From Bacteroidaceae bacterium (GTDB lineage Bacteria; Pseudomonadota; Alphaproteobacteria; RF32; CAG-239): a DNA stretch of 64,000 nt. The notes beneath the pieces were generated by a model. It was given only the letters and a program-made list of their open reading frames with translations, did no database searches and was not told where the DNA came from. Where the stretch lies: positions 1,398-65,397 of the forward strand of contig CAVIDY010000008.1 of the NCBI GenBank assembly GCA_963641885.1. The letters run 5' to 3'. This document shows, piece by piece, positions 43,741 through 63,063 of this stretch; position 1 is the first letter of the stretch; each line of letters opens with the position of its first letter. The position numbers and the translations under genes were made by a program.

Positions 43741-44343
43741 TTAGTTGTTGTTAGAAAGAGGCGGAATGTTGATTTGGGCAATATACCCTGGGCGAATCCG
43801 CTTGCTGCTGTAGTGCATATTTCCGGTTTCTATCAAATAGCGTTCGCGGCGCGTCCATTGTGCAGCTGTCGCAAAAAAGTCTTTGCCTGTTACTTCTTGA
43901 TTGCGCGGGTTCATAATATAGAGCACGCAGCCTTGATGAGGTTCAACCAAGCCGCAGCGGCTGCGTCCTACCGGCACATCAGAGTTTACAACAACGCCGT
44001 CAAGACCTTTTTTAGCCGTTTCTTGGGTGGAAAACAGGGTAGAGCCTAAAACAACACCGAAAAGCGCTGCCAATACCAGCATTAGCAGGACAGTTTTGTT
44101 TTTCAAAAAATATGTTACAGTTTCCGGTTCTTGCGGCATTAACTCTTCGTCTGTAATAAAATGGATATTTTCGGCATCGCCGTTGTCATCGTAATAATTT
44201 TCGGTAGTTTCGTTTTGCAGGCTATTTTGCGGTACAGAAATTTTTTCGGGAACTCCATAGGTTGCCGGCTGATTTTCAGGTACGCGCGGACGTTTGATTT
44301 TTCTGATTTTACGAGGCGCATTTTTAAACTGAGTTTCTTCCAT
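43741..44343 (-). CDS. bitopic membrane protein (basic/acidic cytoplasmic head, one TM helix, ~100-aa periplasmic domain)
   Basis: 200 aa. TM helix VLLMLVLAALFGVVLGSTLF. 11-nt gap after the secretin-like gene. Confidence 0.55.
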   Translation of the reverse strand: MEETQFKNAPRKIRKIKRPRVPENQPATYGVPEKISVPQNSLQNETTENYYDDNGDAENIHFITDEELMPQEPETVTYFLKNKTVLLMLVLAALFGVVLGSTLFSTQETAKKGLDGVVVNSDVPVGRSRCGLVEPHQGCVLYIMNPRNQEVTGKDFFATAAQWTRRERYLIETGNMHYSSKRIRPGYIAQINIPPLSNNN

Positions 44344-44354
44344 TTTTCTCTCCG

Positions 44355-45692
44355 TTAAATTCTGTTTTTCAAGGTTTCATTAGTTTTTAATGTGCGGACA
44401 AGGCGCGGAACCATAAAGATAATGGTTTCCGACTTAGGGTTTTGAATGCCGAATAGTTCGTTCGGTAAGCCAATAATTAAGAAATTTTCGCCAAGCTTGC
44501 TGCGGATTTTAAATTGCGTAACCTGACCATCAGTTTCTTCTAAGGTAATATCTGAAAAGATTTCATTTTTCTTTTCTACCGAAGCTTTAGCCAAAACCGA
44601 CATACCATAGGCGTTGCTTTCTGGTTTGCTGCATTTGCCTATGTCAAAGCGGGAAAGCCACAAGTTAGGCACAATAAATTTGCCTTCAGAAACTGTTTCA
44701 ATTTGAGCTTGGTTTCCTAAGAACTGCTGTAGTTTTTCAATTGAAATGTCATTTGTGGTGGTTAATACGCGACCAATAACTCCGGTTTGCGCTGTTGTGA
44801 TTGAGCCAAAGTCAAAGGCGTTCAGCAAATCTTTCCATTCAATATCTTGCTGAATGTATGGGTATAGGCGGAATACGCTGACGTCATATGCAATAAGAGT
44901 AGGGCTGTTTTCAAATGACTTTATCAGTTCCTGAATTTTGTTGCGGGTTTCAATGTCTGCGTCAAAAGTAATGGAATAATCCGCCCAGTTGGTTACAATG
45001 TTGGTTATTCCTGCGCCGCGGATAACATCAAGCAAGCCTAAAATAATCGGGCGAGACGGAGGGGTGTATAGCGTCATATTGACGCGGCGGCTTAAAGTTA
45101 AAATTTTATCTTTGGCGTTGTAGGTGGTGTAAATGTCCGCCGAATCGGCAATCATTTTAACCACTTCCGAAAATTCGCCTTTTAAATCTTCGGCAGAAAT
45201 GCTGGTATATGGACCATCGGCGGAAGAAACGCGTATGCCTGCTTCTTTGGTTAGTTTTACCAATGCTTGCTCCGCCGGCATCATATCAAAAGTGTAGCCG
45301 GTTACTTCAAAGCGCGGCAGTGGGTCGTTGCGACCGTTTCGCTCAAGTTTGAAGGCGGAGTTTATATATGGCAAAGTCAGTACCATCTGCTGGGTTTTCC
45401 AGTTAACGTTGCAGCGCAGCGGAGTTTCCAAGTCCAAAGCATTAGCTCCTTCCGGAGTGCGGACAATCGCTGGTTCTTCAGGGTCTTTGAACACGATTTC
45501 TTCTTTGGAAAACTTCATAGTGTTTATGTCTGAAGTAGGCTGATTTACGGTTTCTGCCGGAACTTGCGCGCTTATGGCAGCGGTGTTGTCTTCGCTAAAA
45601 TCAATATCATCGCGGGCAATGCAGGCTGAAAGTCCGGATAAAAGCGCGGACAATCCTAAAACTAAACTGAAAGTGTTAATGTGTTTTTTCAT
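44355..45692 (-). CDS. outer-membrane lipoprotein, secretin-like (tentative)
   Basis: Lipobox LSAC. N0/N1-like alpha-beta modules (MPAEQALVKLTKEAGIRV...ILTLS; ITNIVTNWADYSITFDADIETRNKIQELIKSFENSPTLIAYDVSVFRL). C-terminal pattern FKIRSKLGENFLIIGLPNELFGIQ...ETIIFMVPRLV resembles the end of secretin domains. Confidence 0.5.
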   Translation of the reverse strand: MKKHINTFSLVLGLSALLSGLSACIARDDIDFSEDNTAAISAQVPAETVNQPTSDINTMKFSKEEIVFKDPEEPAIVRTPEGANALDLETPLRCNVNWKTQQMVLTLPYINSAFKLERNGRNDPLPRFEVTGYTFDMMPAEQALVKLTKEAGIRVSSADGPYTSISAEDLKGEFSEVVKMIADSADIYTTYNAKDKILTLSRRVNMTLYTPPSRPIILGLLDVIRGAGITNIVTNWADYSITFDADIETRNKIQELIKSFENSPTLIAYDVSVFRLYPYIQQDIEWKDLLNAFDFGSITTAQTGVIGRVLTTTNDISIEKLQQFLGNQAQIETVSEGKFIVPNLWLSRFDIGKCSKPESNAYGMSVLAKASVEKKNEIFSDITLEETDGQVTQFKIRSKLGENFLIIGLPNELFGIQNPKSETIIFMVPRLVRTLKTNETLKNRI

Positions 45693-45704
45693 TTTATGTT
45701 GTTC

Positions 45705-46211
45705 CTATTGCTGCTGATTATTGTCATCGGTGTTGTCTGAATTTTGGCTGATGTTGTTTTCTGCCATAAGTTTGTTCATTAACTCATCTATATTCATACC
45801 AGCACCAGAGGTTGGATCAACCGATTTATCAAAATTACTCATAACTTCATTCATTTTTTGCACTTCGTTAGGGTCGGATCGCAGCATTTCTGGAGATTGG
45901 TTGCTGGTCAGCTCTTCTTGATAAATGGATAGATTTTTACGCAGAGCTTCTACACCGCCAGCGATTTTCTTTTCTATATACGGATAGAGTTCTTTATGCT
46001 CTAAAATATAGTTGCCAGTTTCACAAATTTCTTCCAAAACATCAAGCACATAAGGATAAAATTTATATTCTTCAAGCGCAATGTTGCCGCTGCGGATACA
46101 ACGTGCCGCAATGCGGGAAATGGTGCGGTCGTAATAATCTATCAGAACAATGTAGTTGTCCACATACCAGAGAGATTCCTTGGTAATTGGTGCGAGATTT
46201 TCTTCTGCCAT
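45705..46211 (-). CDS. hypothetical acidic cytoplasmic protein
   Basis: 168 aa, helical N-terminal part, acidic Asn/Gln-rich tail. 12-nt gap to the secretin-like gene. Confidence 0.55.
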   Translation of the reverse strand: MAEENLAPITKESLWYVDNYIVLIDYYDRTISRIAARCIRSGNIALEEYKFYPYVLDVLEEICETGNYILEHKELYPYIEKKIAGGVEALRKNLSIYQEELTSNQSPEMLRSDPNEVQKMNEVMSNFDKSVDPTSGAGMNIDELMNKLMAENNISQNSDNTDDNNQQQ

Positions 46212-46274: not shown

Positions 46275-48725
46275 TTATTTTGGATTTTGCGGTAAAGGAT
46301 TACCGTTTTCATCGACATACTCCCAGTCTCCGTCATCGCCGGAAACAGGATTACCGTTTTCATCGACATATTCCCAGTCTCCGTCATCGCCGGAGATCGG
46401 GTTACCGTTTTCATCGACATATTCCCAATCGCCGTCATCGCCGGAAACAGGATTGCCGTTTTCATCAACATATTCCCAATCGCCGTCATCACCTGAAACA
46501 GGATTGCCGTTTTCATCGACATATTCCCAATCGCCGTCATCTGCTGCAGAATTGTTTTCTTTGGTGAAGGCGGTTTGCGTTTGTTGAGCCGCTGCTGTTT
46601 GAGCCTGCGGTTTCGGCAATTCATCGTCACCGCCCAAAGATATAGGCTTTATATTGTCCAAGGAAATATCATCATCCGAGCTTAGCGCATTTTTTATTTT
46701 TAACAAAGCATCTTCGTACGAATGCAACTGTGACTTTTTATATTCTTGGTTTTGCGGTTCAGGTTCTTTCGGCAAATCTACGGCAGGCTTGCTGGTAGGA
46801 GTTGGTTTTGTTTCAACAGGTCTTACCGATTCAGACTTTTGAACCGCAGCAGGCGTGGTGAAAGAATCAGCAGAGAAAATATCCGGTTCAAAAGAATTGT
46901 CTTCTTCGGAAGGAATGGCTGCCAATATATCTTCTATACTAAGGTTTTCATCTTTGGGAGTAGGTTTCGGTTGCTCCTTAACCGGTTCAGAATTAGGAGC
47001 AGGTTTTGGCTGCTCTTTAACCAATTCAGGCTTTGGAGCAGGTTTTGGCTGCTCCTTAACTGGTTCAGGATTTGGAGCAGGTTTCGACTGCTCTTTAACC
47101 AATTCAGGCTTTGGAGCAGGTTTCGGCTGCTCCTTAACTGGTTCAGGATTTGGAGCAGGTTTTGGCTGTTCCTTAACTGGTTCAGGCTTTGGAGTAGGTT
47201 TTGGCTGCTCCTTAACTGGTTCAGGCTTTGGAGTAGGTTTGGGCTGTTCCTTAACCGGTTCAGGCTTTGGAGCAGGTTTCGGCTGTTCTTTAACCAATTC
47301 AGGCTTTGGAGCAGGTTTTGGCTGCTGCTGAACAGGGGCAGTTGGTTGTTTTTCTTTGTCTTTAAGGTTGACCGTTAAAGCCTCGTTATTTTTATGCTCG
47401 TTTGCCGAATTGTCTTTTTTAGAGGCTTTTTCATCAATTTTTTTGTTCGGCTGTTGGTCGTTTTTATTCTGATTTTTCAGGTCGTTAATTTTGTTTAAGC
47501 TTTTATTTATGCGGCTAAGCAAAGTGTCAGAAGAGTTTTTTGCCTCGTTGCTGAAGTTTTGGGTTAACTTATTGGTTGTTTCGCTTATTTTATCGCTGAA
47601 GCTTTTTATAAAATTATTTTTATCTTTTGCTTGCTCTGCTTTTTTTGTATTATTGCTTTCATTCTTTTTTGGCTGCTGAGCATTTGCCGTATTAGAAGTA
47701 TTTTGTTTAGAAACAATAGTATTACCGCCAGTTTGGTCTTCTACATCAACATCTTGCGAAACCACAACTTTTACAGTGGAGCGTGGTGCGGACTGCGCTA
47801 GAGTTTGCGCTAATTCCTGCTGCGATTGGGTGATTGCCTGCACTAGCATTTCACCAAAAGATTTTATGGCTTCAAGCTGTTGCGAGTTGTTTTGACGCAA
47901 TGCTTCGGCAAGAGCCGTTGCCGGTATTCCGGAATTTAATGCTGCGGCTAGTCCGGCGTTGTTTTCTGTCGAGGTGCCGCCGTTTAGAATATTTTTATTC
48001 AAAGCAGCAATAATTTGCATCATATCTTCATGGCGGCGGGCATCGTTTTGCATAAGCGTTTGATTTATGCTGCTAAAGTAGGAGGTATCCATATTGATGT
48101 TGTTAACAGTGGTTGAAGAATTATTTTGCTGCTGAGCTGTCATTCCTGTCGGCTGTACTGGTGCTGCAGAAAAGGTTTGCTGCTGCGTCGCTGATGTTGT
48201 ATTAACCTGACCTGCAAGGCGGTTGGTTAAAGTTTGCATACTGGCAGCATAGGCATTGAATGATTTGTTCAGCAAAATTGCCAAATCGGTCATATTGTTA
48301 TTAGATGCAGCATTGCTGCTTTGCAGTGCCGCCGCCAAAGAATTTGCTAAACTTTCGGCAAAATCAGCGCCTAAAGTAAGCTCACCGCCGTTTCCGGAGT
48401 GCTGTTTCAGGCTGTCGATTGATTTTTTTTCTTCTTCTATGTTTTGGGCTATGAGTTCGCTGGTGCCGCCGGAATTTTTACCTTGTTTTTCTTCAACTTC
48501 TTTAACGTGTTCCAAAAAAACGCGTCCGCCAGGCAGGGTTGCCAGCAATTCTTTGGTTTTTTCTGAGATATTAAGCAGAGACTCGTCAAATTCATCTTTT
48601 TTTGCTTGATTGAAAATATGAATTTGGTGGAAAATATTTAAATAACGTTGGGCAACCAGAATCGGGTCTTCTTCTTCCGGATTGCTGGAATATTCTACAT
48701 CATCTTCAATTAAGTCTTCTGCCAC
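46275..48725 (-). CDS. 816-aa repeat protein: conserved N-domain, Q/N/A-rich middle, PKP repeats, five acidic Trp repeats
   Basis: GTG start with GGAG/GAGG upstream and no TM helix. The N-domain (AQRYLNIFHQIHIFN...LPGGRVFLEHVKE) is shared with the 272-aa gene upstream. Confidence 0.7.
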   Translation of the reverse strand: MAEDLIEDDVEYSSNPEEEDPILVAQRYLNIFHQIHIFNQAKKDEFDESLLNISEKTKELLATLPGGRVFLEHVKEVEEKQGKNSGGTSELIAQNIEEEKKSIDSLKQHSGNGGELTLGADFAESLANSLAAALQSSNAASNNNMTDLAILLNKSFNAYAASMQTLTNRLAGQVNTTSATQQQTFSAAPVQPTGMTAQQQNNSSTTVNNINMDTSYFSSINQTLMQNDARRHEDMMQIIAALNKNILNGGTSTENNAGLAAALNSGIPATALAEALRQNNSQQLEAIKSFGEMLVQAITQSQQELAQTLAQSAPRSTVKVVVSQDVDVEDQTGGNTIVSKQNTSNTANAQQPKKNESNNTKKAEQAKDKNNFIKSFSDKISETTNKLTQNFSNEAKNSSDTLLSRINKSLNKINDLKNQNKNDQQPNKKIDEKASKKDNSANEHKNNEALTVNLKDKEKQPTAPVQQQPKPAPKPELVKEQPKPAPKPEPVKEQPKPTPKPEPVKEQPKPTPKPEPVKEQPKPAPNPEPVKEQPKPAPKPELVKEQSKPAPNPEPVKEQPKPAPKPELVKEQPKPAPNSEPVKEQPKPTPKDENLSIEDILAAIPSEEDNSFEPDIFSADSFTTPAAVQKSESVRPVETKPTPTSKPAVDLPKEPEPQNQEYKKSQLHSYEDALLKIKNALSSDDDISLDNIKPISLGGDDELPKPQAQTAAAQQTQTAFTKENNSAADDGDWEYVDENGNPVSGDDGDWEYVDENGNPVSGDDGDWEYVDENGNPISGDDGDWEYVDENGNPVSGDDGDWEYVDENGNPLPQNPK
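46297..46541 (-). repeat. 51-bp tandem coding repeat, ~4.8 copies (GDDGDWEYVDENGNPVS)
   Basis: Period counted directly: ATTACCGTTTTCATCGACATACTCCCAGTCTCCGTCATCGCCGGAAACAGG is 51 nt. Copies differ by only a few bases. Confidence 0.85.
46958..47328 (-). repeat. 39-bp tandem coding repeat, ~9.5 copies (PKPAPKPEPVKEQ)
   Basis: Period counted directly as 39 nt. The protein shows nine xVKEQ units with P/L, A/T and K/N variation. Confidence 0.85.
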
Positions 48726-48778
48726 CTGTTGTGCCTCACTCCATAAAAAACAACTTATTCTTTTCTAATATATAAGAA

Positions 48779-48806: not shown

Positions 48807-48823
48807 GCAGTAAGAGCGAAAAA

Positions 48824-49642
48824 TTATAGCCCGATAAGCACTACTTTGTGGATTTTTGCAATATTGCTGATAGTAAACAGTATTTTTTCTTCAGGATTGC
48901 AGCGCAAACCATATAATTGTCCGCGTTCGTCCGTATAGAGCCTAACCAGTTTTGCTTCGGCTTTGTTAAAAAAGTAGAGCGCTAAATCGCCTGAACCGAC
49001 AAGCTCGGATTTGTCAATATAAAGTATGGCTTTGTCGGATAAATCCAGTCCGACGCATTTAGCGTTAAGTTTAACCGCATAAACCGAATGCTTGTTTTGC
49101 AAGGCAATGGGGCAGGATATCAATCTTAGGATTGTGGATTTACTGATAAGCAAGTTTCCGTCAGCAGTGGTTGAGCCAAAAAGCGGAATTGTGCTAATTG
49201 TATGCGCAAGATCAGAATTTGTTGTCAGATTTGCACTTTTGAGTGCGTCAACCAAAGAGTTTGCTAATTTTTCGGCAAATTCGTTGCCGATAGCCAGCTC
49301 GCCGACTGTTACGTTTATGTTGTGCTTTTTGTGATGTGTTTCTGCTGATTTTTTTTCTTCTTCAATGTTTTTAGTAATCTGATTAAGCGTTTCGTCCGAA
49401 ATTGTATCGTCATCTTCAAGTTCTTTTATATGTTCCAGCAAAACTTTTCCGCCAGGCATATTGACCAGCAGTTTTTTTATTTTGTCATTCATCTGCAAAA
49501 GAGATTGGTCAAATTCCGCTCTCTTTTCAGCATTGAAAATATGAATTTGATGAAAAATATTTAGATAGCGCTGAGCATCAAGAATCGGATATTCTTCATC
49601 TTTTTCGCTGGCAACATCATTTTCTCTTATTACGTCTGACAC
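48824..49642 (-). CDS. chimeric 272-aa protein: N-domain of the 816-aa protein fused to an S24-like C-domain of the XRE regulator
   Basis: N-terminus: PILDAQRYLNIFHQIHIFN...MPGGKVLLEHIKE. C-terminus: PLFGSTTADGN...GQLYGLRCNPEE...KIHKVVLIGL, versus LPVFGTSNAEGN...GQLYGLRWNPDE...KIHKVVAINL in the regulator. Confidence 0.65.
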   Translation of the reverse strand: MSDVIRENDVASEKDEEYPILDAQRYLNIFHQIHIFNAEKRAEFDQSLLQMNDKIKKLLVNMPGGKVLLEHIKELEDDDTISDETLNQITKNIEEEKKSAETHHKKHNINVTVGELAIGNEFAEKLANSLVDALKSANLTTNSDLAHTISTIPLFGSTTADGNLLISKSTILRLISCPIALQNKHSVYAVKLNAKCVGLDLSDKAILYIDKSELVGSGDLALYFFNKAEAKLVRLYTDERGQLYGLRCNPEEKILFTISNIAKIHKVVLIGL

Positions 49643-49686
49643 TATAAAACCTGTTTAAAAAAATTTACTCCCGCTTTATAAAAACG

Positions 49687-49714
49687 AGAGAGTAAATTCT
49701 TTATTAAAATATAG
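49687..49714 (-). promoter_or_regulatory. conserved 28-bp upstream element, copy 1
   Basis: AGAGAGTAAATTCTTTATTAAAATATAG on the plus strand. Lies 45-72 nt upstream of the GTG of the 272-aa gene. Confidence 0.35.
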
Positions 49715-49730
49715 CGAATATTCAAAAAAA

Positions 49731-50720
49731 TTATAAGTTGATAGCCACAACCTTATGAATTTTTGTTAAATCGCTGTTGCTGAAATTTGTCCGTTCATCA
49801 GGATTCCAACGCAAGCCGTAAAGCTGACCGTTTTCATCTTCGCGAACGCTGATTAGCATAGCTTCGGTTTCGCTGATGTAATATAAGGCAATGTCGCCGG
49901 CGCTGACAACTTCTGTTTTATCTATAAACAAAATAGCGCGGCTCGGCAAAAGCGAACCCAAACGGCGGGTGCACAAATTTACGGCATAAGCTTCCGGTTT
50001 GTTTTGCAGCTGCACTGGGCAAACAACTTCTTTTACGGCATTGGCGCGGTCAATGACAATATTGCCTTCGGCGTTGCTGGTGCCAAAAACAGGCAGCATA
50101 GCCGTTTCATCGTCATCGGCAGTTTGCGCGGCAACATTAGAATATCTGGAGTTGTTTAAAAGTTTATAGCGGGTTTCATTGTGTTCGATAATATCTTCTA
50201 AAACGCCTTCATTTTCCAGCTTTTTGATTTCGGCTTTCAATTTGTCGAGAGGCATAGAAAAAGCTTTGGCGATGTTTTGATATTCTTTGTCAGAAACTTC
50301 TCTTTGTCCCATTTCTATACGGTGATAAACCGACAGAGTCATATCAGCGCTTTCGGCAACTTCAATTAAGGTCAAACCTTTGTCAGTGCGAATGTGGCGC
50401 AAACCAGCACCCAAAGTTTTCAAACCAGCATTTTGGTTGATTTTGCAGCGTCTTTCCTGTTCGCGTTTCCAAGCTTGAACAACATCTTGCTGTGAATTTT
50501 GTTCATTAACGTATAAATCTTGCAGCGAGCAGTCAATAAGTTCGGCAACCTGAATCAGCTGTTCTTGATTGAGACGGCGGTAACCTTTTTCAATTTTAGA
50601 AATAGCCGACAAGCTGACTCCCAAATGATCAGCCAATTCTTGCATAGACATACCGCGCAATCTTCTGTGCATTCTGATTTGATTAGGGAAAATAATTTCT
50701 TCCATATCATCTTTCTCCAT
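49731..50720 (-). CDS. transcriptional regulator with two XRE-type HTH domains and a C-terminal S24/LexA-like beta-barrel domain
   Basis: HTH 1: IRMHRRLRGMSMQELADHLGVSLSAISKIEKG. HTH 2: LRHIRTDKGLTLIEVAESADMTLSVYHRIEMG. The C-domain follows the S24 pattern. Confidence 0.75.
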   Translation of the reverse strand: MEKDDMEEIIFPNQIRMHRRLRGMSMQELADHLGVSLSAISKIEKGYRRLNQEQLIQVAELIDCSLQDLYVNEQNSQQDVVQAWKREQERRCKINQNAGLKTLGAGLRHIRTDKGLTLIEVAESADMTLSVYHRIEMGQREVSDKEYQNIAKAFSMPLDKLKAEIKKLENEGVLEDIIEHNETRYKLLNNSRYSNVAAQTADDDETAMLPVFGTSNAEGNIVIDRANAVKEVVCPVQLQNKPEAYAVNLCTRRLGSLLPSRAILFIDKTEVVSAGDIALYYISETEAMLISVREDENGQLYGLRWNPDERTNFSNSDLTKIHKVVAINL

Positions 50721-50851: not shown

Positions 50852-50901
50852 CTTCGGCAAATGTCTAAATTTTTGTAAAATTTTTAGCGATATTTGCCGA
50901 A
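50852..50901 (-). terminator. 10-bp perfect inverted repeat (TTCGGCAAAT ... ATTTGCCGAA), possible terminator or operator
   Basis: Starts 2 nt after the stop of the 1083-aa gene. On the minus strand a U-rich stretch (GTGTTTTTAT) follows. The loop is long (30 nt), so the function is uncertain. Confidence 0.35.
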
Positions 50902-50902
50902 A

Positions 50903-57064: not shown

Positions 57065-58427
57065 TGCGGTTTATCCCCCTTAACTTATCCATTTTTTGTT
57101 GAACAGCTTTGATTTTTGCCGTAGCTTTCTGTACCTTGGCACGAGCTTTACGCAAAGATTCCACATGGTCTATGATAGAAGTGGCAATTTTGCCGGCGCC
57201 ACCGGAGATAATATGAAATCCCCATTTTGCAGCCATAGCAACCAGCTGCTGAATTTTGCGCTGCATGCCCGCTTTACCTCCTCCTCCGGTGATTTTGTTG
57301 GAAAGCTCCACAGACATACCGGTTGCCTTGACAATTAAAAAGCCCATAAAGATAAGCGCCATGGCAGTGGTGCCGAAATTTTCATATTTGCTTTGTTCAG
57401 CCAGCCCGATACCGTCCTGCGTTAATAATTTCTGCATGGCGAGAATGGTCATGGAAACAATGATGCCCAAACAAAACATAATAGCCGAAGAATTGAGGAT
57501 TATCTTAAAACCGGTAACGCTCCATTTGCGGATTTGCTCAAAAGGATACGCCATTATCAGGAATGGTAAAATAATCATTATCATATTCAAACGGAAAATG
57601 CTGTCGGCTAAATAGAGCACAAAACAGAGCTTGGCAATGGTGAACCAAACAATTAAGAAACAGCCGCAGATAAAACTGGTCAGGCTGACAATTTTCATTA
57701 AGCGTATGGCAATGTCATAGCCGATGGCAAGTCTGGAGCTGACGGCGCACGCCATGCAGCTCAGCATATTAAGCGGTTCTTCCGGAAAAGATTTTGCCGA
57801 AAAATCAGTCATGCTTTTAGGGTTGAACTTGCAGCCGCTTTGTCCCCAGTTGGCGTCGCCGTAATACTCGCACATAATTCCTTCTGTGTCATCGCCGAAT
57901 GTTGATTTCCAAGCAATGGTCTTTACCTGCGCGTCAGGATCTTGAGCCAGCCTTTGCATAATTTCGGACGTAAACTCTAAAATGGTGATGTATATAGGAA
58001 ATATAAAGTTATTTATCACATAATAAATTTGCTCGGTAGAAGAGGCTAAAATGCCGCAAAACGCGCATAAAAAGGCTTTGCGGACAATCTTGGTCCAAAA
58101 TTCGCCCAAGGATTCGGGAGTAGGCGTGCTGATGTGGCGCAGAATTTGATATGCCATCCAGATGGTAAAACCAAGCAAAACAATGTTTAGCAGATTTTCT
58201 TTGGTCAGATTGCTGTAAACGTTTAGGGTTTGAGTGCCGATATTTTTGTAAAAAAGTTTCAAGAAACCAGTTTGCCAGCAAGTGTTCTGCATTTCTGCGG
58301 CTTTGCGGGGGTCTTCCTGCCCAACACTAGTTCCACCTTCTTCGGTGCTGCAGGCGGTCAGCAAAAACAGTAGGGAAAAGGCAATAAACAATACCTTTAA
58401 GATATTATGCAGCTTTGGTGCTTTCAT
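57048..58427 (-). CDS. TrbL/VirB6-like polytopic membrane lipoprotein
   Basis: Lipobox LLTAC. Both conserved blocks are present (LLGFTIWMAYQILRHI...; YLADSIFRLNMIMIILPFLIMAYPFEQIRKW). GGGGKAG tail. Confidence 0.65.
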   Translation of the reverse strand: MKAPKLHNILKVLFIAFSLLFLLTACSTEEGGTSVGQEDPRKAAEMQNTCWQTGFLKLFYKNIGTQTLNVYSNLTKENLLNIVLLGFTIWMAYQILRHISTPTPESLGEFWTKIVRKAFLCAFCGILASSTEQIYYVINNFIFPIYITILEFTSEIMQRLAQDPDAQVKTIAWKSTFGDDTEGIMCEYYGDANWGQSGCKFNPKSMTDFSAKSFPEEPLNMLSCMACAVSSRLAIGYDIAIRLMKIVSLTSFICGCFLIVWFTIAKLCFVLYLADSIFRLNMIMIILPFLIMAYPFEQIRKWSVTGFKIILNSSAIMFCLGIIVSMTILAMQKLLTQDGIGLAEQSKYENFGTTAMALIFMGFLIVKATGMSVELSNKITGGGGKAGMQRKIQQLVAMAAKWGFHIISGGAGKIATSIIDHVESLRKARAKVQKATAKIKAVQQKMDKLRGINRNEKDS

Positions 58428-58536: not shown

Positions 58537-60498
58537 TTACGGATTTTGTTGATTGTTATTTTCTTCAGTTTGCTCTGTGTTTTCTATTTTTGAAGTTTCA
58601 GCGTCTTTGTCGGATGGCGAAGTTGGCGTTGGCTTAGGAGTTGTATCTTTACCGTCAGACTTGGTCGGTTTTGGCGGCATACCGCGTTGTGCTCCCGGCT
58701 GGAATTTCTTTAAGCCGACTTTTGCTCCGACGGCAGCCGCGCCCTTCAGTGCTGCTCCGGAAATTGCATTGCCGGCTTTGTTGGCTAAATTTGTAATACC
58801 TGTTTTATCCGCAGCATATCCGGCAGCCGAAGAAACAACTCTGCCACCGATTTTGGCAGCACCTTTGCCGATAGAGGTTGCAGCAGACGCGGTAGCTCCA
58901 CCGATTTTAGCGGCAATGCTTGAGCCGGAGCCGGAAGCGAATTTATTGGCAGTACCATTGATAATGCCTATCATTTTGAAGGCAAAAATGCAGCAGGCGA
59001 TTAAAATCAAAGTTTCCATACCATCAAGACTGGCGATTTCATTAACCTTGTCCAAATCGTTTTCATTCAAAGCATTTAGCAATGTAGATAAATCACCTTT
59101 TTTGCCGCCAGCTGAATAGCCGATTATTTCCATGCCCACAACCAGCATAACACCAGCAAGCGCAAAGTTGAAAAATGTGTTCATCAGCATGCTCATGCCT
59201 TTGTTGGCGTATCTAGTCGTCAACTTAAACGGCCAGCAGGCGATCAAAACCGGCACAAAAGCGCATAAAATACCTAGCTGAACCGTGCAGTCTATTAGAT
59301 AAAAAACGATAACCATCCAAATTCCCAAGCCAAAAATATAAACGACTAGTCCATTTGCCCATATGCCAAAATCAGGAATAAGGTCTTTTTTCCAGCCATA
59401 GCAAATAAGCGCGCGTCCCACAGAAGGCATGGTAGAGGCAGATTGGCTGAAACAGTCGGCGGTGTTATAAATGCTGCCCAGCAACGAAGCGTCCATTTCG
59501 CCGCCCGGTGCCATTGAAAACATTGAAACTTTGTCTATACAGCTTTTTGCCCCAGGGTTGCCGATTGAAAGCAGCGCCAGTCCCATATCTAAGCCGCCCT
59601 TGACTATTGGTGAAATTACATAATTGTAAATATCGGCGGAGTTGCTTAGCAAATAATAAGCGATAGCGACTCTAAGTCCCAATCCGATAATCGCTTTTAA
59701 ATAAGCGCCAGTGTTGGCTCCGGACGGAGTGAAAATGGTTCTGAGCGTCTGTAAGGCAAGATATACCAAGAAAAAGGTCAGAACAATCGGCTGCAGGGCA
59801 GAGGCAAGGGCTTTCCAAGCAATGGAGGCAAGGGAGGCGTCTGCACTCAAAACTGTTTGAAATATAGGGCAAAGCGGACAGCCGGCGTAATCGCTTAAAT
59901 AGCTGGAAAACGGTTTGCAGCCTTTTACTTGGTCTTTGAGTTCGTGGGTTTGGTTGGAATAGCTGACACATTCAGCGTTTTGCCCGTTGTCGTCGCAAAC
60001 GCAGGATAAATTTGCGTCAGGGTCTTGACGGACAACACCTAAAACATTTTCTGCCTTAGACCGTAGGTTGATAAATTTTTCCAGCATTTGGGCTGCTTGG
60101 TTTTTTAGCTTTACACATTCAGGTTTTTTCGGGTTTTCAGCGTTCCAAGCAACACCAGTATATTCAAAATTATCTTTGCGGATATAGTAAGCGCTGTCAA
60201 TGCTGCCGGAAGAAGTTTTTTCCAGCATAATAATGCTTTGTCTAGCTAAATCAGTGAAAATTGTGGGTGTCTGTTTATTTAATCCGCGGTTGCAGTTTTC
60301 TTCATATTGTTTGGCAACGGTGTTATAAGCGTCAAGCTGGCTTTTTACGCTGTTCAACGAAGCAATAGCTGTTTGATTTATGTTTTTTTTGAGATTTTCA
60401 AGTTCTTGAGGCTTGCACTCTGCAGCGTCGGCATAAAGTTTCGGCATAGCGGAGAACAGGCAGAAAAAAATAAATATAAACAGTTTAAGTTTAGACAT
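58537..60498 (-). CDS. TrbL/VirB6-like polytopic membrane protein with Cys-rich coiled-coil periplasmic head
   Basis: Start set at MSKLKLFIF (signal peptide, GGGGAGAA RBS), not at the tracked 60669. CPLCPIF motif, both conserved blocks, Gly/Ala/Lys tail. Confidence 0.65.
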   Translation of the reverse strand: MSKLKLFIFIFFCLFSAMPKLYADAAECKPQELENLKKNINQTAIASLNSVKSQLDAYNTVAKQYEENCNRGLNKQTPTIFTDLARQSIIMLEKTSSGSIDSAYYIRKDNFEYTGVAWNAENPKKPECVKLKNQAAQMLEKFINLRSKAENVLGVVRQDPDANLSCVCDDNGQNAECVSYSNQTHELKDQVKGCKPFSSYLSDYAGCPLCPIFQTVLSADASLASIAWKALASALQPIVLTFFLVYLALQTLRTIFTPSGANTGAYLKAIIGLGLRVAIAYYLLSNSADIYNYVISPIVKGGLDMGLALLSIGNPGAKSCIDKVSMFSMAPGGEMDASLLGSIYNTADCFSQSASTMPSVGRALICYGWKKDLIPDFGIWANGLVVYIFGLGIWMVIVFYLIDCTVQLGILCAFVPVLIACWPFKLTTRYANKGMSMLMNTFFNFALAGVMLVVGMEIIGYSAGGKKGDLSTLLNALNENDLDKVNEIASLDGMETLILIACCIFAFKMIGIINGTANKFASGSGSSIAAKIGGATASAATSIGKGAAKIGGRVVSSAAGYAADKTGITNLANKAGNAISGAALKGAAAVGAKVGLKKFQPGAQRGMPPKPTKSDGKDTTPKPTPTSPSDKDAETSKIENTEQTEENNNQQNP

Positions 60499-60799
60499 TT
60501 TTATTCTCCCCGTTGGTTTTACCGCGGCGTCTGCGGGATTTTTTCTGCGTTTTTGTCGGCTCGGCAACATTTTGTTTGAGGTGCAGTTTTTGTTTAATAA
60601 AATTAGAAATCCTGACAAGGAAATTGGTATATTTGTTTTGCGGAACGCCGACCAGCAGCAAACCAGCAAGCAATACTAAAATAAAGCCGATTTTAGCCGA
60701 ATAGGCAAAGAAACTTGTGCCGATAATATCCAAGGCGTGCGAACTCACTAGTGAAAACACGACAATAAACATTAGCAATGTAAGAAAAATCGACTTCAT
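60491..60799 (-). CDS. 102-aa two-TM protein with strongly basic C-tail
   Basis: Overlaps the next gene start by 8 nt (translational coupling). Hydrophobic segments at residues 4-20 and 37-52. Tail KKSRRRRGK. Confidence 0.5.
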   Translation of the reverse strand: MKSIFLTLLMFIVVFSLVSSHALDIIGTSFFAYSAKIGFILVLLAGLLLVGVPQNKYTNFLVRISNFIKQKLHLKQNVAEPTKTQKKSRRRRGKTNGENKNV

Positions 60800-60834
60800 A
60801 TTCTTTTACCTTTTCAGTTTTCGTTAACCTGATT

Positions 60835-63063
60835 CTATGATTTTGAACCGCTGCTTGGCTTTGCTCCTCCGCCGGATTCCTCTTTGTTTTCACCTTCGGT
60901 GTCACCTTTTTCAGCGTCTTCAGCATTGCGACCGCCAGCAATTTTGGCTTTGCTGCCAATACCAAATTTGCCTGAGATATTTTTAGCACCAGTAGATATT
61001 TTATTGCCGACAGCTTGAACTGCGCCAGTAACACCAGCGGCTTCAGCCATGGCTCCGCTGGCAGAAGCAATTGCTTTAGCTCCTTTAGCAGCAGCTGGTT
61101 TGGCAACGGCTGTCGCCACGCTGGCGGCAGTACCGCCAAGTTTCGAGCCCATGTCTCCGGTTGGAACGCCGCCGCTGGCAAAGCGGTCTGTGACTTTTGA
61201 AAGCTGTGAAACTAATTTCATGGAAATCATACAGCAAACCAGCAAAATCAGCATTTGCAAACCGTTTATGCTCATCGCTTTTTCCAATTCATCGGTGTTG
61301 TTGCTGTTCAGCCATTCTTCCAGCTGACTTTTATCCAAACCGGAAGTAAGCGCCGCTTCTATCAATTCAATCACCGAAGCTAAAAGCACTCCCATTATAA
61401 TAAAGCGGAAACATACATTCAAAATCATATTCCAGCCAGTTTTAGTGTAGCCGGAAGTTATTTTAAACGGCCAGCAGGCAATTAAGAACGGCAGCAGGCA
61501 GGCAATTATGCCTAAATGAAGAGCTATATCTAACAGATAGAAACCAACAGCCAGCATTATCATCAAACCAAAGGCAAAAATGAGAACGCCCTCAATCAGC
61601 ATTTGCCAATGCGGCAGCACATACCAGGTTTTATTTACCCAAGAATTACAATATAAGGAACGACCGATTGCCGGAAAAGTAGAGGTTTTGGCGTTGTAGC
61701 CTTCTACTGCGCCCATAACTTTTTTCAAAAAATCGGCAGTGAGTAAATTGTTCCCTTCGTCAAAAGAATCGTATTTGCTGGCAAAGCCTTCAATGACGCT
61801 TTGGTCAGCACTGCTAGGAATTAACGAAAGTCCGAATTCAAAGCCGCTTTCTATTAACGGCGTCAAGCCGAGTTCATAAACAGTATTCGGCAGTGCCAAT
61901 AACCCTATGGCTAAGGCTACTTTGAAGCCTTGCAACAAAAGAGTGTTTAAAAATTTACCGATAGTTTGCTTGGCAGGAGAAGCAATCAGTATTAAAACTT
62001 GATAACCGATAAATATTGAAAAACCCAACAGTAACAGATTGATTAAAGAATCGCTTAATGCTTCAAAAGCTCCGCCGGATAATTTTTGGTCAGCTTTCAA
62101 TATGGTTTCAAAAATACCGCAAATCGGACAAATCGTAAAATCTGCCTCATATTCATTCAGCTGTTTGCATTCCGCATCATTGAGGTCATCTTCTTGAAAA
62201 GTATCATCTTTAACTTCACAAGACAAAAGCTCGCCAGTTGAGGCACAGGTGCAATGGCTTTCAACTTGTTTTGACAAAGTGGTTAAATATTGGTGGGCTT
62301 TATCGCGGCTGGCGGAAAAAGCACGGCGATAATTCATTACGTTATTGAAAGCTTTTTGGCAGTCGGTTAATATTTCTATTTTCGCCTCTAATGCCAGGGA
62401 ATGAGCCTCGGCGACAGCTATTGCTTCGGCGGTTTGGGCGTTTTGCATTTCCGTTTTTCGGTCTTGGCGGTTGCTTATATATTCATGCCGTGCACTGTTA
62501 ACATTTTCGATGTGGTATTTTATGTCTATGTGCGTGTCTTTAAGCTCTTTATCTAAAACGTCAAAATTTTCTTGCAATGCTGGAACGTATTTTGCTCCCG
62601 TAACAGCTCCGGCAGCGTCATTGGCGTTAAATTTTAGGTCGCTGTTTGCTATGTTTTTGAAAACAATTTTAGTTTTGTCGATGGCGCTTGTTAAAACGCC
62701 TTTAATCCATTGACTCGCTTTGCCACTTAAACTTTGCTTATCGCCAAGCTTAAAGTCCAGTTCCGACGGTGTAAAGCAAACCAGCGTGTTGTCGTTTTTT
62801 TTCATGGCATTAAGGGATTTTTCATACTCATCGTAGTTTTTTTTCATTTCTATCAGCTGCAAATTAGCTTGTTCTGCTATTTTTTTGTAGTTGTCATCAG
62901 TTAATTCGCATTCTTTAGTGCCTGAAGATAAGCTGGTGGTAGAATTTGCAGCAGTTTCGGCGGCATTTGCAGCCTGTATTGCCGCAAGCAAAGCAAAACA
63001 GCATAAAAACACTGTTTTTATAAAAAAGTTAGGGTTTAATTTTTTCCTGCTTTGCCAAATCAA
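60835..63063 (-). CDS. TrbL/VirB6-like polytopic membrane protein with Cys-rich coiled-coil periplasmic head
   Basis: TTG start with AAGGA upstream gives a signal peptide with an RKK n-region. CPIC at 62119..62130. Both conserved blocks. Gly/Ala/Lys tail. Confidence 0.65.
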   Translation of the reverse strand: MIWQSRKKLNPNFFIKTVFLCCFALLAAIQAANAAETAANSTTSLSSGTKECELTDDNYKKIAEQANLQLIEMKKNYDEYEKSLNAMKKNDNTLVCFTPSELDFKLGDKQSLSGKASQWIKGVLTSAIDKTKIVFKNIANSDLKFNANDAAGAVTGAKYVPALQENFDVLDKELKDTHIDIKYHIENVNSARHEYISNRQDRKTEMQNAQTAEAIAVAEAHSLALEAKIEILTDCQKAFNNVMNYRRAFSASRDKAHQYLTTLSKQVESHCTCASTGELLSCEVKDDTFQEDDLNDAECKQLNEYEADFTICPICGIFETILKADQKLSGGAFEALSDSLINLLLLGFSIFIGYQVLILIASPAKQTIGKFLNTLLLQGFKVALAIGLLALPNTVYELGLTPLIESGFEFGLSLIPSSADQSVIEGFASKYDSFDEGNNLLTADFLKKVMGAVEGYNAKTSTFPAIGRSLYCNSWVNKTWYVLPHWQMLIEGVLIFAFGLMIMLAVGFYLLDIALHLGIIACLLPFLIACWPFKITSGYTKTGWNMILNVCFRFIIMGVLLASVIELIEAALTSGLDKSQLEEWLNSNNTDELEKAMSINGLQMLILLVCCMISMKLVSQLSKVTDRFASGGVPTGDMGSKLGGTAASVATAVAKPAAAKGAKAIASASGAMAEAAGVTGAVQAVGNKISTGAKNISGKFGIGSKAKIAGGRNAEDAEKGDTEGENKEESGGGAKPSSGSKS

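What the first reader, a model, noticed from the sequence alone, without database searches (positions are those of the whole stretch)
43741..63063. 20-kb co-directional cluster with no NTPase: possible composite envelope-spanning system
Every gene from 63063 down to 43741 is on the minus strand, mostly with short gaps or overlaps. Clear hairpins occur only after the VirB6-like array (50852..50901) and at the cluster end (43701..43727). The contents are inner-membrane VirB6-like channels, two PG hydrolases, a regulator with a derived adaptor, a large repeat protein, a chaperone-sized acidic protein, an outer-membrane secretin-like lipoprotein and a bitopic protein. I scanned all translated products for GxxxxGK[ST] and found none. 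The closest match, LGTGKKT, lies inside the M23 domain and has the wrong spacing. An envelope-spanning gene set without its own energiser is unusual. The system either borrows ATPases encoded elsewhere or is not a conventional secretion machine.
Basis: inference. Interest (0 to 1): 0.7.

Follow-up and report, generated by a model that had tools for sequence, protein, structure and literature searches.

The report
VirB6 array joined to a secretin
This conserved 20-kb locus of uncultured gut Alphaproteobacteria joins five type IV secretion VirB6 channel proteins to a pilus-type outer-membrane secretin, a pairing I found no description of, and its missing motor ATPase is most likely encoded elsewhere in the genome.

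Summary
Fourteen minus-strand genes span 43741 to beyond 64000, and none has a P-loop. The parts are five VirB6/TrbL paralogs, two of them fused to peptidoglycan hydrolases, plus a VirB6 N-terminal fragment. There is also a double-HTH regulator, an acidic repeat protein, a small acidic protein, a lipoprotein and a bitopic protein. Profile and fold searches show the lipoprotein is a divergent secretin of the type IVb-pilus kind. The gene order recurs in about 60 related loci from gut and rumen metagenomes, with different flanks and sometimes rearranged, so the adjacency is not fortuitous. The lack of an energiser is probably a matter of gene scattering. In five related loci a giant VirB10/TrbI protein and a VirB11 ATPase sit directly beside the secretin module. 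In eight, a bundlin-like type IVb pilin gene sits beside it. The best reading is one islet of a scattered, Rickettsiales-rvh-like type IV secretion apparatus coupled to a type IVb-pilus-type secretin. I found no description of this in the literature I searched. I could not test for VirB4, VirB8, VirB9 or VirD4 elsewhere in the genome. I also could not tell whether the secretin serves a pilus or replaces the VirB7/VirB9 core.

The parts
63172..64000 (-). Upstream conserved neighbour ('g224'). The gene runs off the window end; orthologs are about 280-290 aa. It looks like an alpha/beta hydrolase but has GAGC where the GxSxG nucleophile elbow should be. It has no TM segment and no signal peptide.
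   Evidence: The reading frame is open to base 64000. It sits in the same position in 21 related loci. Alignment A6. Orthologs give only weak Abhydrolase hits.
60835..63063 (-). VirB6 paralog 1 (742 aa). It has a signal peptide, a Cys-rich helical periplasmic domain, a VirB6/TrbL TM core and a disordered tail.
   Evidence: All 22 orthologs hit Pfam TrbL, best E 2.7e-7. The five best Foldseek matches to the AF2 model are R388 TrwI/VirB6 chains (E 8e-4, target TM 0.63). TM segments.
60491..60799 (-). Small conserved two-TM protein with a basic tail (102 aa). It is the size of VirB2 or VirB3, but its family is unknown.
   Evidence: Translation. tblastn finds it between the first two VirB6 genes in 17 or more loci at 28-92% identity. 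No PDB match.
58537..60498 (-). VirB6 paralog 2. The ORF is open to 60669, but the likely start is ATG 60498, which overlaps the 102-aa gene by 8 nt as in L008.
   Evidence: Pfam TrbL E 5.2e-7. 29% identical to paralog 1 over 514 aa. Start inferred.
57048..58427 (-). VirB6 paralog 3 (459 aa). It is a lipoprotein (lipobox LLTAC) with a TM core.
   Evidence: BLASTP to paralogs 1 and 2. Orthologs in L005-L007 carry an unmarked PF04610 hit. Sequence.
56489..57064 (-). 191-aa protein equivalent to the N-terminal part of a VirB6 paralog (signal peptide, CxxC motif, first TM segments). It is a separate gene in most relatives and is fused to the next gene in some.
   Evidence: It aligns to residues 219-368 of paralog 2 and 269-414 of the M23 paralog. 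Synteny.
54175..56475 (-). VirB6 paralog 4 (766 aa), with an N-terminal periplasmic SleB-type cell-wall hydrolase domain.
   Evidence: Pfam Hydrolase_2 E 9.9e-14, 52 bits. TM core aligns to the other paralogs.
50903..54154 (-). VirB6 paralog 5 (1083 aa). It has an N-terminal M23 metallopeptidase domain, a VirB6 TM core and a long variable repeat-rich tail.
   Evidence: Pfam Peptidase_M23 E 1e-5. PF01551 is precomputed for most orthologs. H110-x3-D114 and H219-x-H221 are conserved. BLASTP to the paralogs.
50852..50902 (-). Hairpin followed by a U-run, after the VirB6 array.
   Evidence: Fold -17.7 kcal/mol, z -2.15.
49731..50720 (-). XRE-type regulator (329 aa) with two HTH_3 domains and a conserved beta-rich C-terminal domain of unknown family. 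It is among the best conserved proteins of the locus (63-99% identity across the main-clade loci L001-L048; 43-56% in the deep clade).
   Evidence: Pfam HTH_3 E 1.7e-24, two stretches. Alignment A8. Identities. The C-terminal domain has no PDB match.
49668..49690 (-). Terminator-like hairpin after the regulator gene.
   Evidence: z -3.0.
48824..49642 (-). 272-aa chimera. Its N-terminal 145 aa are 52% identical to the repeat protein's N-terminus, and its C-terminal 123 aa are 46% identical to the regulator's C-terminal domain. It is a recent, lineage-specific gene.
   Evidence: BLASTP. Found at full length only in the window and in L010. The intergenic hairpin is duplicated.
46275..48725 (-). 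Acidic repeat protein (816 aa) with no signal peptide or TM segment. It has a conserved N-terminal domain of about 70 aa, nine 13-aa P/K/E repeats and five 17-aa GDDGDWEYVDENGNPVS repeats. It is a candidate substrate or scaffold.
   Evidence: The N-terminal domain is conserved even in the deep clade, where it is a separate protein.
45705..46211 (-). Small acidic cytoplasmic protein (168 aa), highly conserved. It is the size of a secretion chaperone.
   Evidence: Alignment A4. The only leads are non-significant hits to the T3SS chaperones CesAB and CesA (E 0.27 and 0.63; one member hits Pfam T3SchapCesA at 0.095).
44355..45692 (-). Lipoprotein secretin (445 aa; lipobox LSGLSAC). It is a divergent member of the secretin superfamily, closest to the type IVb-pilus secretins.
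   Evidence: The 31 best Foldseek matches are all secretins, with BfpB first at E 5e-8. A family profile reaches proteins at E 1e-12 to 5e-5, and all 10 of those tested carry Pfam Secretin above the cut-off, some with STN and TcpQ. There is no direct Pfam or PDB sequence hit.
43741..44343 (-). Bitopic inner-membrane protein (200 aa). It has a conserved basic cytoplasmic motif (PRKLRKIKRP), one TM segment and a conserved periplasmic domain of about 90 aa with two Cys. I infer that it connects to the secretin.
   Evidence: Alignment A5. TM segment. It always follows the secretin gene. No family match.
43706..43729 (-). Intrinsic-terminator-like hairpin that closes the cluster.
   Evidence: z -3.75.

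Best explanation
The cluster is one conserved chromosomal islet of a scattered, type IV secretion-related envelope apparatus. It belongs to a clade of uncultured gut and rumen Alphaproteobacteria.

Shown. Five tandem VirB6-family inner-membrane proteins are present. Two of them carry their own periplasmic peptidoglycan hydrolase (SleB-type and M23). Next to them lies a second module: a double-HTH regulator, an acidic repeat protein, a small acidic protein, a lipoprotein secretin of the type IVb-pilus kind, and a bitopic membrane protein. The two modules stay together across the clade.

Inferred. The VirB6 paralogs form the inner-membrane platform, and their fused hydrolases open the cell wall locally, doing the job of VirB1. 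The secretin gives the outer-membrane portal, and the bitopic protein links it to the inner membrane. The regulator between the two modules co-ordinates them. The energy comes from ATPases encoded elsewhere in this genome: at least a VirB11-type ATPase, working with a giant VirB10/TrbI protein, as seen beside the secretin module in related lineages. A bundlin-like type IVb pilin is also part of the system in relatives. The acidic repeat protein together with the small acidic protein is the best candidate for a substrate-chaperone pair.
For: Parts.
- VirB6: Pfam TrbL, fold match to R388 TrwI, paralogy.
- Hydrolases.
- Secretin: the 31 best Foldseek matches are all secretins, and profile hits reach proteins of which 10 of 10 tested carry PF00263.

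Conservation as a unit.
- 39 loci from species-representative genomes keep the same order down to about 30% identity of the M23-VirB6 protein.
- Flanks differ: N-ATPase operon, HisKA gene, or transketolase.
- 28 more metagenome loci reach 31-33% secretin identity.
- L065 and L066 have the two modules swapped yet still adjacent.

Energiser elsewhere.
- A 322-aa T2SSE-family ATPase (best PDB hit Brucella VirB11, E 1.2e-15, nearly full length) and a 1517-1827-aa TrbI-domain protein lie directly upstream of the secretin module and co-directional with it in L059 and L065.
- The same pair is convergent about 0.6 kb downstream in L063, L073 and L076.

Pilin. Type IVb pilin genes (Pfam Bundlin 1.4e-13, PilS 1e-10; PDB BfpA 2e-4) lie next to the bitopic gene in eight loci, including sister species of the window organism.

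Precedent. The rvh system has five VirB6 paralogs and genes spread over five islets (PMC2653234).
Against: - No VirB4, VirB8, VirB9, VirD4, VirB2/3/5, PilB, PilC or prepilin peptidase gene was seen in the window or within 10 kb of the cluster in any of the 76 loci. The rest of these genomes could not be searched.
- VirB10-VirB11 adjacency is limited to five loci that fall in two neighbouring basal lineages of the main clade.
- One deep sub-clade (L049, L051/L055) has the regulator-secretin module without a VirB6 array within 3-7 kb.
- The secretin model has low confidence (pLDDT 54, TM 0.13-0.23).
- A VirB10-containing system normally forms its own outer-membrane pore, so the secretin may serve only a pilus.
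- The substrate and chaperone roles rest on size, charge, position and non-significant CesA hits.
Confidence: 0.55

Rival explanations
1. There are two separate but cooperating machines encoded side by side. One is a scattered VirB-type T4SS (VirB6 array here; VirB10, VirB11 and the rest elsewhere) that has its own VirB7/9/10 outer-membrane core. The other is a type IVb pilus (secretin, bitopic protein and pilin; its ATPase, platform protein and peptidase elsewhere). The pilus would serve attachment or mating-pair stabilisation, as the R64 thin pilus and the PAPI-1 pilus do for their transfer systems.
For: The secretin's closest relatives are of the type IVb kind: BfpB is the top fold hit, and distant profile hits carry TcpQ and STN. 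Bundlin/PilS-like pilin genes flank the secretin module in eight loci. A TrbI/VirB10 protein exists in relatives and could form the T4SS's own outer pore. The regulator-secretin module occurs without an adjacent VirB6 array in L049 and L051.
Against: No PilB/BfpD-type ATPase, GspF/PilC-type platform protein or prepilin peptidase was seen in any of the 76 loci. The VirB10-VirB11 pair sits beside the secretin module, and co-directional with it in L059 and L065, rather than beside the VirB6 array. On a chromosome where other T4SS genes are free to scatter, the VirB6 array stays with the secretin module in nearly all lineages, even after rearrangement.
Confidence: 0.28
2. The machine is self-contained and has no dedicated NTPase. 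It would be driven by the proton-motive force, by substrate folding or by PG-hydrolase-assisted release, so it is not a conventional secretion system.
For: There is no P-loop in any of the 14 products. The same holds for most related loci, which carry no ATPase within 10 kb other than housekeeping ones.
Against: VirB6 and secretins are known only as parts of ATPase-driven machines (established knowledge). A VirB11 ATPase is physically linked to the module in five related loci. Scattering of T4SS genes has a precedent.
Confidence: 0.07
3. The adjacency is fortuitous or a remnant. The cluster would be a decaying mobile element (a conjugative island or filamentous prophage with a CI-like repressor and a pIV-like secretin), or two unrelated operons that happen to be neighbours.
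For: An XRE repressor-like regulator sits in the middle. Secretins occur in filamentous phages; pIV is among the fold hits. VirB6 is typical of conjugative elements.
Against: There is no integrase, relaxase or phage gene in the locus. GC content is like the rest of the window. The position is fixed next to the rRNA operon, and the order is conserved in about 60 loci across deep divergence, with intact ORFs and strongly conserved proteins. The flanks change while the block persists.
Confidence: 0.05

Closest known systems
Rickettsiales vir homolog (rvh) type IV secretion system
   Same: It has a tandem array of five expanded VirB6/TrbL paralogs with divergent flanking regions. Its T4SS genes are dispersed over several chromosomal islets and inherited vertically (PMC2653234). 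VirB10- and VirB11-type genes are present in the wider clade studied here.
   Different: In Rickettsia the VirB6 array follows virB3-virB4 (my knowledge). Here the upstream neighbours are a pseudo-hydrolase gene and an rRNA operon. Two VirB6 paralogs here are fused to PG hydrolases. A secretin module and type IVb pilin genes are attached, and the VirB10 homolog is giant with beta-flower repeats. None of these is described for rvh. Relatedness of the host to Rickettsiales was not shown.
VirB/D4-type T4SS of R388 and Agrobacterium (TrwI/VirB6 stalk base)
   Same: The VirB6 fold: the five best Foldseek matches to the AF2 model of the 742-aa paralog are TrwI/VirB6 chains. Pfam TrbL also hits.
   Different: Canonical systems have one VirB6, a separate VirB1 lytic transglycosylase and a VirB7/9/10 outer-membrane core, with all genes in one operon alongside VirB4, VirB11 and VirD4. 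Here there are five paralogs, fused SleB/M23 hydrolases, a secretin, and no ATPase in the locus.
Type IVb pilus secretins (EPEC BfpB, R64 PilN, Vibrio TcpC) and their pilins (bundlin, PilS, TcpA)
   Same: The secretin is a lipoprotein of similar size. BfpB is the best fold match. Distant profile relatives carry Secretin with TcpQ or STN. Bundlin/PilS-like pilin genes lie next to the module in relatives.
   Different: No assembly ATPase, platform protein, prepilin peptidase or minor pilin was found in the locus or its flanks. Sequence is so divergent that Pfam Secretin does not hit directly. The gene partners (repeat protein, small acidic protein, bitopic protein, VirB6 array) are not those of any described type IVb pilus operon.
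Transfer systems that pair a T4SS with a type IVb pilus (IncI plasmid R64 thin pilus; PAPI-1/ICE pil cluster)
   Same: The genetic association of a T4SS with a type IVb pilus secretin and pilin (my knowledge of these systems; not tested here).
   Different: Those are mobile elements carrying complete pil operons (pilL-V) and complete T4SS gene sets. This is a fixed chromosomal locus beside the rRNA operon, with only the secretin (and the pilin in relatives) and with VirB6 rather than Dot/Icm-type or GI-type components.

Membership tests
Type IV secretion system (VirB/D4 type) | VirB6/TrbL-family polytopic inner-membrane protein | tested here: met
   Pfam TrbL for the 710-aa protein (E 5.2e-7), and for all 22 orthologs of the 742-aa protein. 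Foldseek top hits are R388 TrwI/VirB6, target TM 0.63. Five paralogs are linked by BLASTP.
Type IV secretion system (VirB/D4 type) | VirB4-family ATPase (the signature component of T4SS) | tested here: inconclusive
   There is no P-loop protein in the cluster. No VirB4-sized Walker A ORF occurs elsewhere in the 64-kb window or within 10 kb of the cluster in the 76 related loci.
Type IV secretion system (VirB/D4 type) | VirB11-type traffic ATPase and VirB10/TrbI protein | tested here: inconclusive
   Both are absent from the window. Both are present directly beside the secretin module in L059, L065, L063, L073 and L076: Pfam T2SSE 3e-21, PDB VirB11 1.2e-15, Pfam TrbI 5e-34.
Type IV secretion system (VirB/D4 type) | VirB7/VirB9 outer-membrane core, VirB8, VirB2/3/5 and the VirD4 coupling protein | not testable with these tools
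   None was recognised in the window or the loci. The 102-aa two-TM protein is the size of VirB2 or VirB3 but has no match. Whole genomes could not be searched.
Rickettsiales rvh-type T4SS | Several tandem, expanded VirB6 paralogs | tested here: met
   Five paralogs of 459-1083 aa plus one fragment. Compare the five in Rickettsia.
Rickettsiales rvh-type T4SS | VirB6 array directly preceded by virB3-virB4 (my knowledge of the Rickettsia islet) | tested here: not met
   Upstream lie a pseudo-alpha/beta-hydrolase gene and then a divergent rRNA operon.
Secretin superfamily | Direct match to the Pfam Secretin domain (PF00263) or to solved secretins by sequence | tested here: not met
   No Pfam hit for the window protein or 24 orthologs even at E 10. 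No PDB sequence hit with a single sequence or a profile.
Secretin superfamily | Homology detectable through intermediates and at fold level | tested here: met
   The family profile reaches proteins at E 1e-12 to 5e-5, of which 10 of 10 tested carry PF00263 above the gathering score. The 31 best Foldseek matches are all secretins at probability 0.95-1.0. Caveat: the model's pLDDT is 54.
Secretin superfamily | Oligomeric (12-15-mer) gated outer-membrane pore | not testable with these tools
   No multimer prediction or experiment was possible.
Type IVb pilus system | Type IVb prepilin gene in the system | tested here: inconclusive
   There is none in the window. Bundlin/PilS-like pilin genes lie next to the bitopic gene in L012, L013, L015, L032, L037, L039 and L059, and 4 kb away in L057.
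Type IVb pilus system | PilB/BfpD-type assembly ATPase, GspF/PilC-type platform protein and prepilin peptidase | tested here: inconclusive
   None was recognised in the window or the locus flanks.
CI/LexA-like repressor (HTH + S24 peptidase) | XRE-type HTH DNA-binding domain | tested here: met
   Two HTH_3 domains, E 1.7e-24.
CI/LexA-like repressor (HTH + S24 peptidase) | S24 self-cleaving C-terminal domain with a Ser-Lys dyad | tested here: not met
   No Pfam S24 hit. A profile of the C-terminal domain finds no LexA, CI or UmuD structure. The resemblance is only my reading of the sequence pattern.

The most novel reading that the evidence does not exclude
This would be a chimeric envelope-spanning nanomachine. 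A type IV secretion inner part (a platform built from five different VirB6 paralogs with built-in PG hydrolases, plus a giant VirB10 and VirB11) is plugged into a type IVb-pilus outer part (a BfpB/PilN-like secretin and a bundlin-like pilin). The secretin replaces the VirB7/VirB9 core as the outer-membrane conduit. The acidic repeat protein, with its five tandem acidic W-x-x-V (LIR-like) motifs, would be a substrate delivered to a eukaryotic or microbial partner in the gut.
Probability: 0.25. Interest if true: 0.85.

Novelty: new variant of a known kind. Interest (0 to 1): 0.66.

Why it matters
T4SSs and secretin-based machines (T2SS, T3SS, type IV pili) are treated as separate solutions for crossing the outer membrane. 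A vertically conserved locus that ties a VirB6 array, and in relatives VirB10 and VirB11, to a secretin and a type IVb pilin would be a natural hybrid of the two. It would bear on how modular these machines are. The locus also offers VirB6 paralogs with built-in cell-wall hydrolases, and a set of five paralogs that matches the pentameric VirB6 base seen in R388. That makes the long-standing question of why Rickettsiales-type systems multiply VirB6 testable in a second lineage. Finally, the locus lies in a widespread but uncultured group of human and livestock gut Alphaproteobacteria. In the loci sampled here it sits at a fixed position beside the rRNA operon, which suggests it is central to how these organisms live.

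Tried and rejected
- Exact-sequence look-ups of window proteins found nothing.
- Direct family assignment failed for the lipoprotein, the bitopic protein, the small acidic protein, the 816-aa N-terminal domain, the regulator's C-terminal domain and the 102-aa protein. I tried Pfam, NCBIfam, and PDB searches with single sequences and with profiles. Only non-significant CesA/CesAB chaperone hits appeared for the small acidic protein.
- The regulator's C-terminal domain looked to me like a dead S24/LexA domain. I dropped the idea as a claim because no search supports it.
- The tail repeats of the M23-VirB6 protein looked to me like the beta-flower repeats of the giant VirB10. BLASTP shows no similarity, so I rejected this.
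- Small ORFs after the cluster in L057 looked like ankyrin repeats by eye. Pfam gave no hit, so I dropped this.
- A first metagenome scan with 16 distant secretins failed for lack of a conserved stretch. A 7-sequence alignment worked.
- Literature searches for a VirB6-secretin system, or for secretion systems of RF32/CAG-239-type gut Alphaproteobacteria, found nothing relevant.
- Sporadic Walker-A-like strings in VirB6 orthologs are not conserved, so I treated them as chance.
- The lineage name RF32/CAG-239 is only my recollection. It was not tested.

Full report
**1. The observation**

The region contains an unbroken run of minus-strand genes:
- 742 aa (63063-60835)
- a 710-aa ORF (60669-58537)
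- 459 aa, 191 aa, 766 aa and 1083 aa
- 329 aa, 272 aa, 816 aa, 168 aa, 445 aa and 200 aa (ending at 43741)

The 710-aa ORF most likely starts at ATG 60498, because the ortholog in L008 shows the same 8-nt overlap with the small gene. Gaps between genes run from -17 to 182 nt.

The gene upstream of the block (63172 to >64000) is also on the minus strand and runs off the window. Its frame is open to base 64000, and its orthologs are about 285 aa.

None of the products contains [AG]x4GK[ST]. The six such motifs in the window all lie outside the cluster. Those I annotated are in ATP synthase alpha and beta and in PhoH. LGTGKKT does lie inside the M23 match.

There are also hairpins after the regulator gene (49690-49668) and after the 272-aa gene. 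The likely transcription units are therefore the VirB6 array, the regulator, the 272-aa gene, and the 816-168-445-200 set.

**2. What the parts are**

*VirB6 paralogs.* Five proteins share a VirB6/TrbL transmembrane core: 742, 710, 459, 766 and 1083 aa.
- Pfam TrbL hits the 710-aa protein at E 5e-7 and all 22 orthologs of the 742-aa protein.
- The five are linked to one another by BLASTP.
- An AF2 model of the 742-aa protein (pLDDT 64) has R388 TrwI/VirB6 chains as its five best PDB matches (E 8e-4, target TM 0.63).
- Each has a signal peptide or lipobox.

The 191-aa protein corresponds to the N-terminal piece of a VirB6 paralog.

*PG hydrolases.* The 766-aa paralog begins with a SleB-type Hydrolase_2 domain (E 1e-13). 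The 1083-aa paralog begins with an M23 domain. The window protein scores just below the Pfam cut-off (26.0 bits against 28.7). Most orthologs carry PF01551, and the HxxxD and HxH motifs are conserved.

*Regulator and chimera.* The 329-aa protein has two HTH_3 domains and a conserved C-terminal domain with no detectable family. The 272-aa protein is a chimera. Its first 145 residues are 52% identical to the start of the 816-aa protein, and its last 123 residues are 46% identical to the regulator's C-terminal domain. It occurs at full length only in the window and in its closest relative, L010.

*Cytoplasmic proteins.* The 816-aa protein is acidic and has no signal peptide or TM segment. It carries nine 13-aa P/K/E repeats and five 17-aa GDDGDWEYVDENGNPVS repeats. 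The 168-aa protein is acidic, cytoplasmic and strongly conserved. Its only database leads are non-significant hits to the T3SS chaperones CesAB and CesA.

*Secretin.* The 445-aa lipoprotein gave no Pfam or PDB sequence hit. Two independent lines nonetheless identify it as a divergent secretin.
- Its AF2 model is of low confidence (pLDDT 54), yet the 31 best Foldseek matches are all secretins. BfpB of the EPEC type IVb pilus is first, followed by GspD, InvG, PilQ, pIV and RcpA.
- A profile of the family, searched against 1.84 billion representatives, finds only 162 proteins. The distant ones score E 1e-12 to 5e-5, and all ten that I scanned carry Pfam Secretin above the gathering score. Some also carry STN and TcpQ.

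*Bitopic protein.* The 200-aa protein has a conserved basic cytoplasmic motif, one TM segment, and a conserved periplasmic domain of about 90 residues with two cysteines. It always follows the secretin gene.

**3. Is the adjacency meaningful?**

Yes. Homologs of the lipoprotein and of the M23-VirB6 protein come only from uncultured 'Alphaproteobacteria bacterium' MAGs and metagenomes. A scan of one genome per species returned 39 loci. All are gut or rumen MAGs, from Hadza humans, cattle, goat, yak, roe deer, rabbit and horse.

A tblastn map shows one order in every locus long enough to judge:

pseudo-hydrolase - VirB6 x2 - VirB6 lipoprotein - fragment - Hydrolase_2-VirB6 - M23-VirB6 - regulator - repeat protein - small acidic protein - secretin - bitopic protein

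This holds down to about 30% identity of the M23-VirB6 protein. The flanks differ between lineages: an N-ATPase operon, a histidine kinase gene, or transketolase.

On the upstream side, a divergently oriented rRNA operon is visible in L044 and L041. That explains why nearly all contigs of relatives stop 1-2 kb above the first VirB6 gene. It also shows that no virB3 or virB4 lies upstream.

A second scan, seeded with distant members of the secretin family, returned 28 metagenome loci.
- Lineages whose secretin is only 31-33% identical (L054, L056, L057) still have VirB6-like genes, the regulator, a protein carrying the 816-aa N-terminal domain, a protein carrying the 168-aa domain, the secretin and the bitopic protein, in that order.
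- In L065 and L066 the secretin module comes first, the regulator is inverted and the VirB6 array follows. The two modules were rearranged yet stayed neighbours.
- The exception is one deep sub-clade (L049, L051/L055). There the regulator-secretin module lies next to housekeeping genes, with no VirB6 array within 3-7 kb.

The two halves are therefore separable modules that are almost always kept together.

**4. The missing energiser**

In L059 and L065 the gene directly upstream of the repeat-protein gene, on the same strand and 83 nt away in L065, encodes a 322-aa T2SSE-family ATPase. Its Walker A is GATATGKT. Its best solved relative is Brucella VirB11 (E 1.2e-15, residues 10-285 aligned), followed by other VirB11 proteins.

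The gene before that encodes a protein of 1517-1827 aa. It has a C-terminal TrbI/VirB10 domain (E 5e-34) preceded by many beta-flower repeats.

In L063, L073 and L076 the same pair (ATPase 86% identical) lies convergent, about 0.6 kb beyond the bitopic gene.

On a neighbour-joining tree of the secretins, these lineages are basal branches of the main clade that contains the window. No VirB4- or VirD4-like P-loop ORF appears in any of the 76 loci.

I infer that the apparatus does have traffic ATPases, and that in the window's lineage they are encoded elsewhere. This matches the rvh system of Rickettsia, where five VirB6 paralogs form one array and the T4SS genes form 'an archipelago of five islets' (PMC2653234). 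It remains an inference, because the rest of the window's genome could not be searched.

**5. A pilin as well**

Genes beginning G-RSM(I/V)EMLGVLAIIGVLS lie immediately after the bitopic gene in L012, L013, L015, L032 (two copies), L037, L039 and L059, and 4 kb away in L057. The L015 protein matches Pfam Bundlin (1.4e-13), PilS (1e-10) and N_methyl. Its best solved relatives are BfpA, PilS, CFA/III pilin and TcpA, which are all type IVb pilins.

These loci are spread over the whole secretin tree and include sister species of the window organism. The window itself has no such gene. No pilus assembly ATPase, platform protein or prepilin peptidase was recognised next to them.

**6. Interpretation**

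The best-supported reading is that the window holds one islet of a scattered T4SS-related apparatus that is coupled to a type IVb-pilus-type secretin.

Shown:
- the identities of the VirB6 proteins, the hydrolases, the regulator and the secretin;
- the conservation of the two-module block;
- the physical linkage to VirB10, VirB11 and a type IVb pilin in relatives.

Inferred:
- the five VirB6 paralogs form the inner-membrane platform (R388 VirB6 is a pentamer; the match in number is only suggestive);
- the fused hydrolases play the VirB1 role;
- the bitopic protein bridges to the secretin;
- the regulator co-ordinates the two modules;
- the repeat protein and the small acidic protein are a substrate-chaperone pair;
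- the 272-aa chimera modulates the regulator.

The main rival is that two machines are encoded side by side: a VirB-type T4SS with its own VirB7/9/10 core, and a type IVb pilus that uses the secretin. This cannot be excluded, since VirB10 normally forms the T4SS outer pore. Against it, VirB10-VirB11 sit with the secretin module rather than with the VirB6 array. The VirB6 array stays with the secretin module while other T4SS genes are free to move. No pilus assembly genes were seen.

An ATPase-free machine and a fortuitous or remnant adjacency are both unlikely, for the reasons given in sections 3 and 4.

**7. Comparison with known systems and novelty**

The VirB6 array and the scattering resemble rvh. 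The secretin and pilin resemble type IVb pili (BFP, the R64 thin pilus, TCP). The pairing of a T4SS with a type IVb pilus recalls R64 and PAPI-1, but those are mobile elements with complete gene sets.

I know of no described T4SS locus containing a secretin-family gene, nor of VirB6 proteins fused to SleB or M23 hydrolases. Full-text searches found none.

I rate this as a new variant of a known kind. The most novel reading, that a secretin replaces the VirB7/VirB9 core in a chimeric machine, remains open. The conserved VirB6-secretin coupling is the interesting part.

Noticed in passing
window 36800-43508 (+); also L001 12266-18919 and L002: An ATP synthase operon in the N-ATPase gene order: beta, epsilon, ATPase_gene1/AtpQ, AtpR, a, c, a b/delta fusion, alpha, gamma. 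It lies tail-to-tail with the cluster and is syntenic in close relatives only.
   Followed up: partly
window 46275-46500 (residues about 726-812 of the 816-aa protein): Five tandem 17-aa repeats, GDDGDWEYVDENGNPVS. Each is an acidic W-x-x-V motif of the kind eukaryotic Atg8/LC3 binds (LIR/AIM-like). This hints that the protein could act on a eukaryotic partner. The motif reading is my own.
   Followed up: no
window 48824-49642 (-) and the intergenic regions 48726-48823 and 49645-49735: The 272-aa gene is a recent chimeric duplication: the N-terminus of the repeat protein joined to the C-terminal domain of the regulator. The AAUUUACUCUCU hairpin region is duplicated alongside it. The gene is present only in the window and in L010.
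   Followed up: partly
L044 1-3698 and L041 1-957; contig ends of L003, L008-L019, L028 and others: A 16S-tRNA-tRNA-23S rRNA operon diverges from the cluster just upstream of the pseudo-hydrolase gene. Most assemblies of relatives break there, 1-2 kb above the first VirB6 gene.
   Followed up: yes
window 63172-64000 (-): This conserved upstream neighbour looks like an alpha/beta hydrolase that has lost its nucleophile (GAGC instead of GxSxG). It also has a conserved 64-aa N-terminal extension, part of which lies beyond the window end.
   Followed up: partly
L065 1509-6062, L059 686-6169, L063/L073 13401-17957, and the adjacent beta-flower proteins: The VirB10/TrbI homolog of related lineages is a giant of 1517-1827 aa with 7-10 beta-flower (PF21785/PF21784/DUF3659) repeats before the TrbI domain. 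A further beta-flower protein is encoded just upstream.
   Followed up: partly
L013 and L037 (record titles): Two loci carrying this Alphaproteobacteria-type cluster come from bins titled 'Bacteroidaceae bacterium' and 'Lachnospiraceae bacterium'. The contigs are probably mis-binned.
   Followed up: no
window 46746-47378 (+): This 210-aa + strand ORF, rich in F, R, L and W, is the antisense reading of the P/K/E repeats of the 816-aa gene. It is not a gene.
   Followed up: yes
L051 1988-4123 (+) and L057 14873-15826 (-): Long proteins of 711 and 317 aa with a prepilin-like N-terminus lie a few kb from the secretin module in the deep clade. Pfam gave no domain hit.
   Followed up: partly
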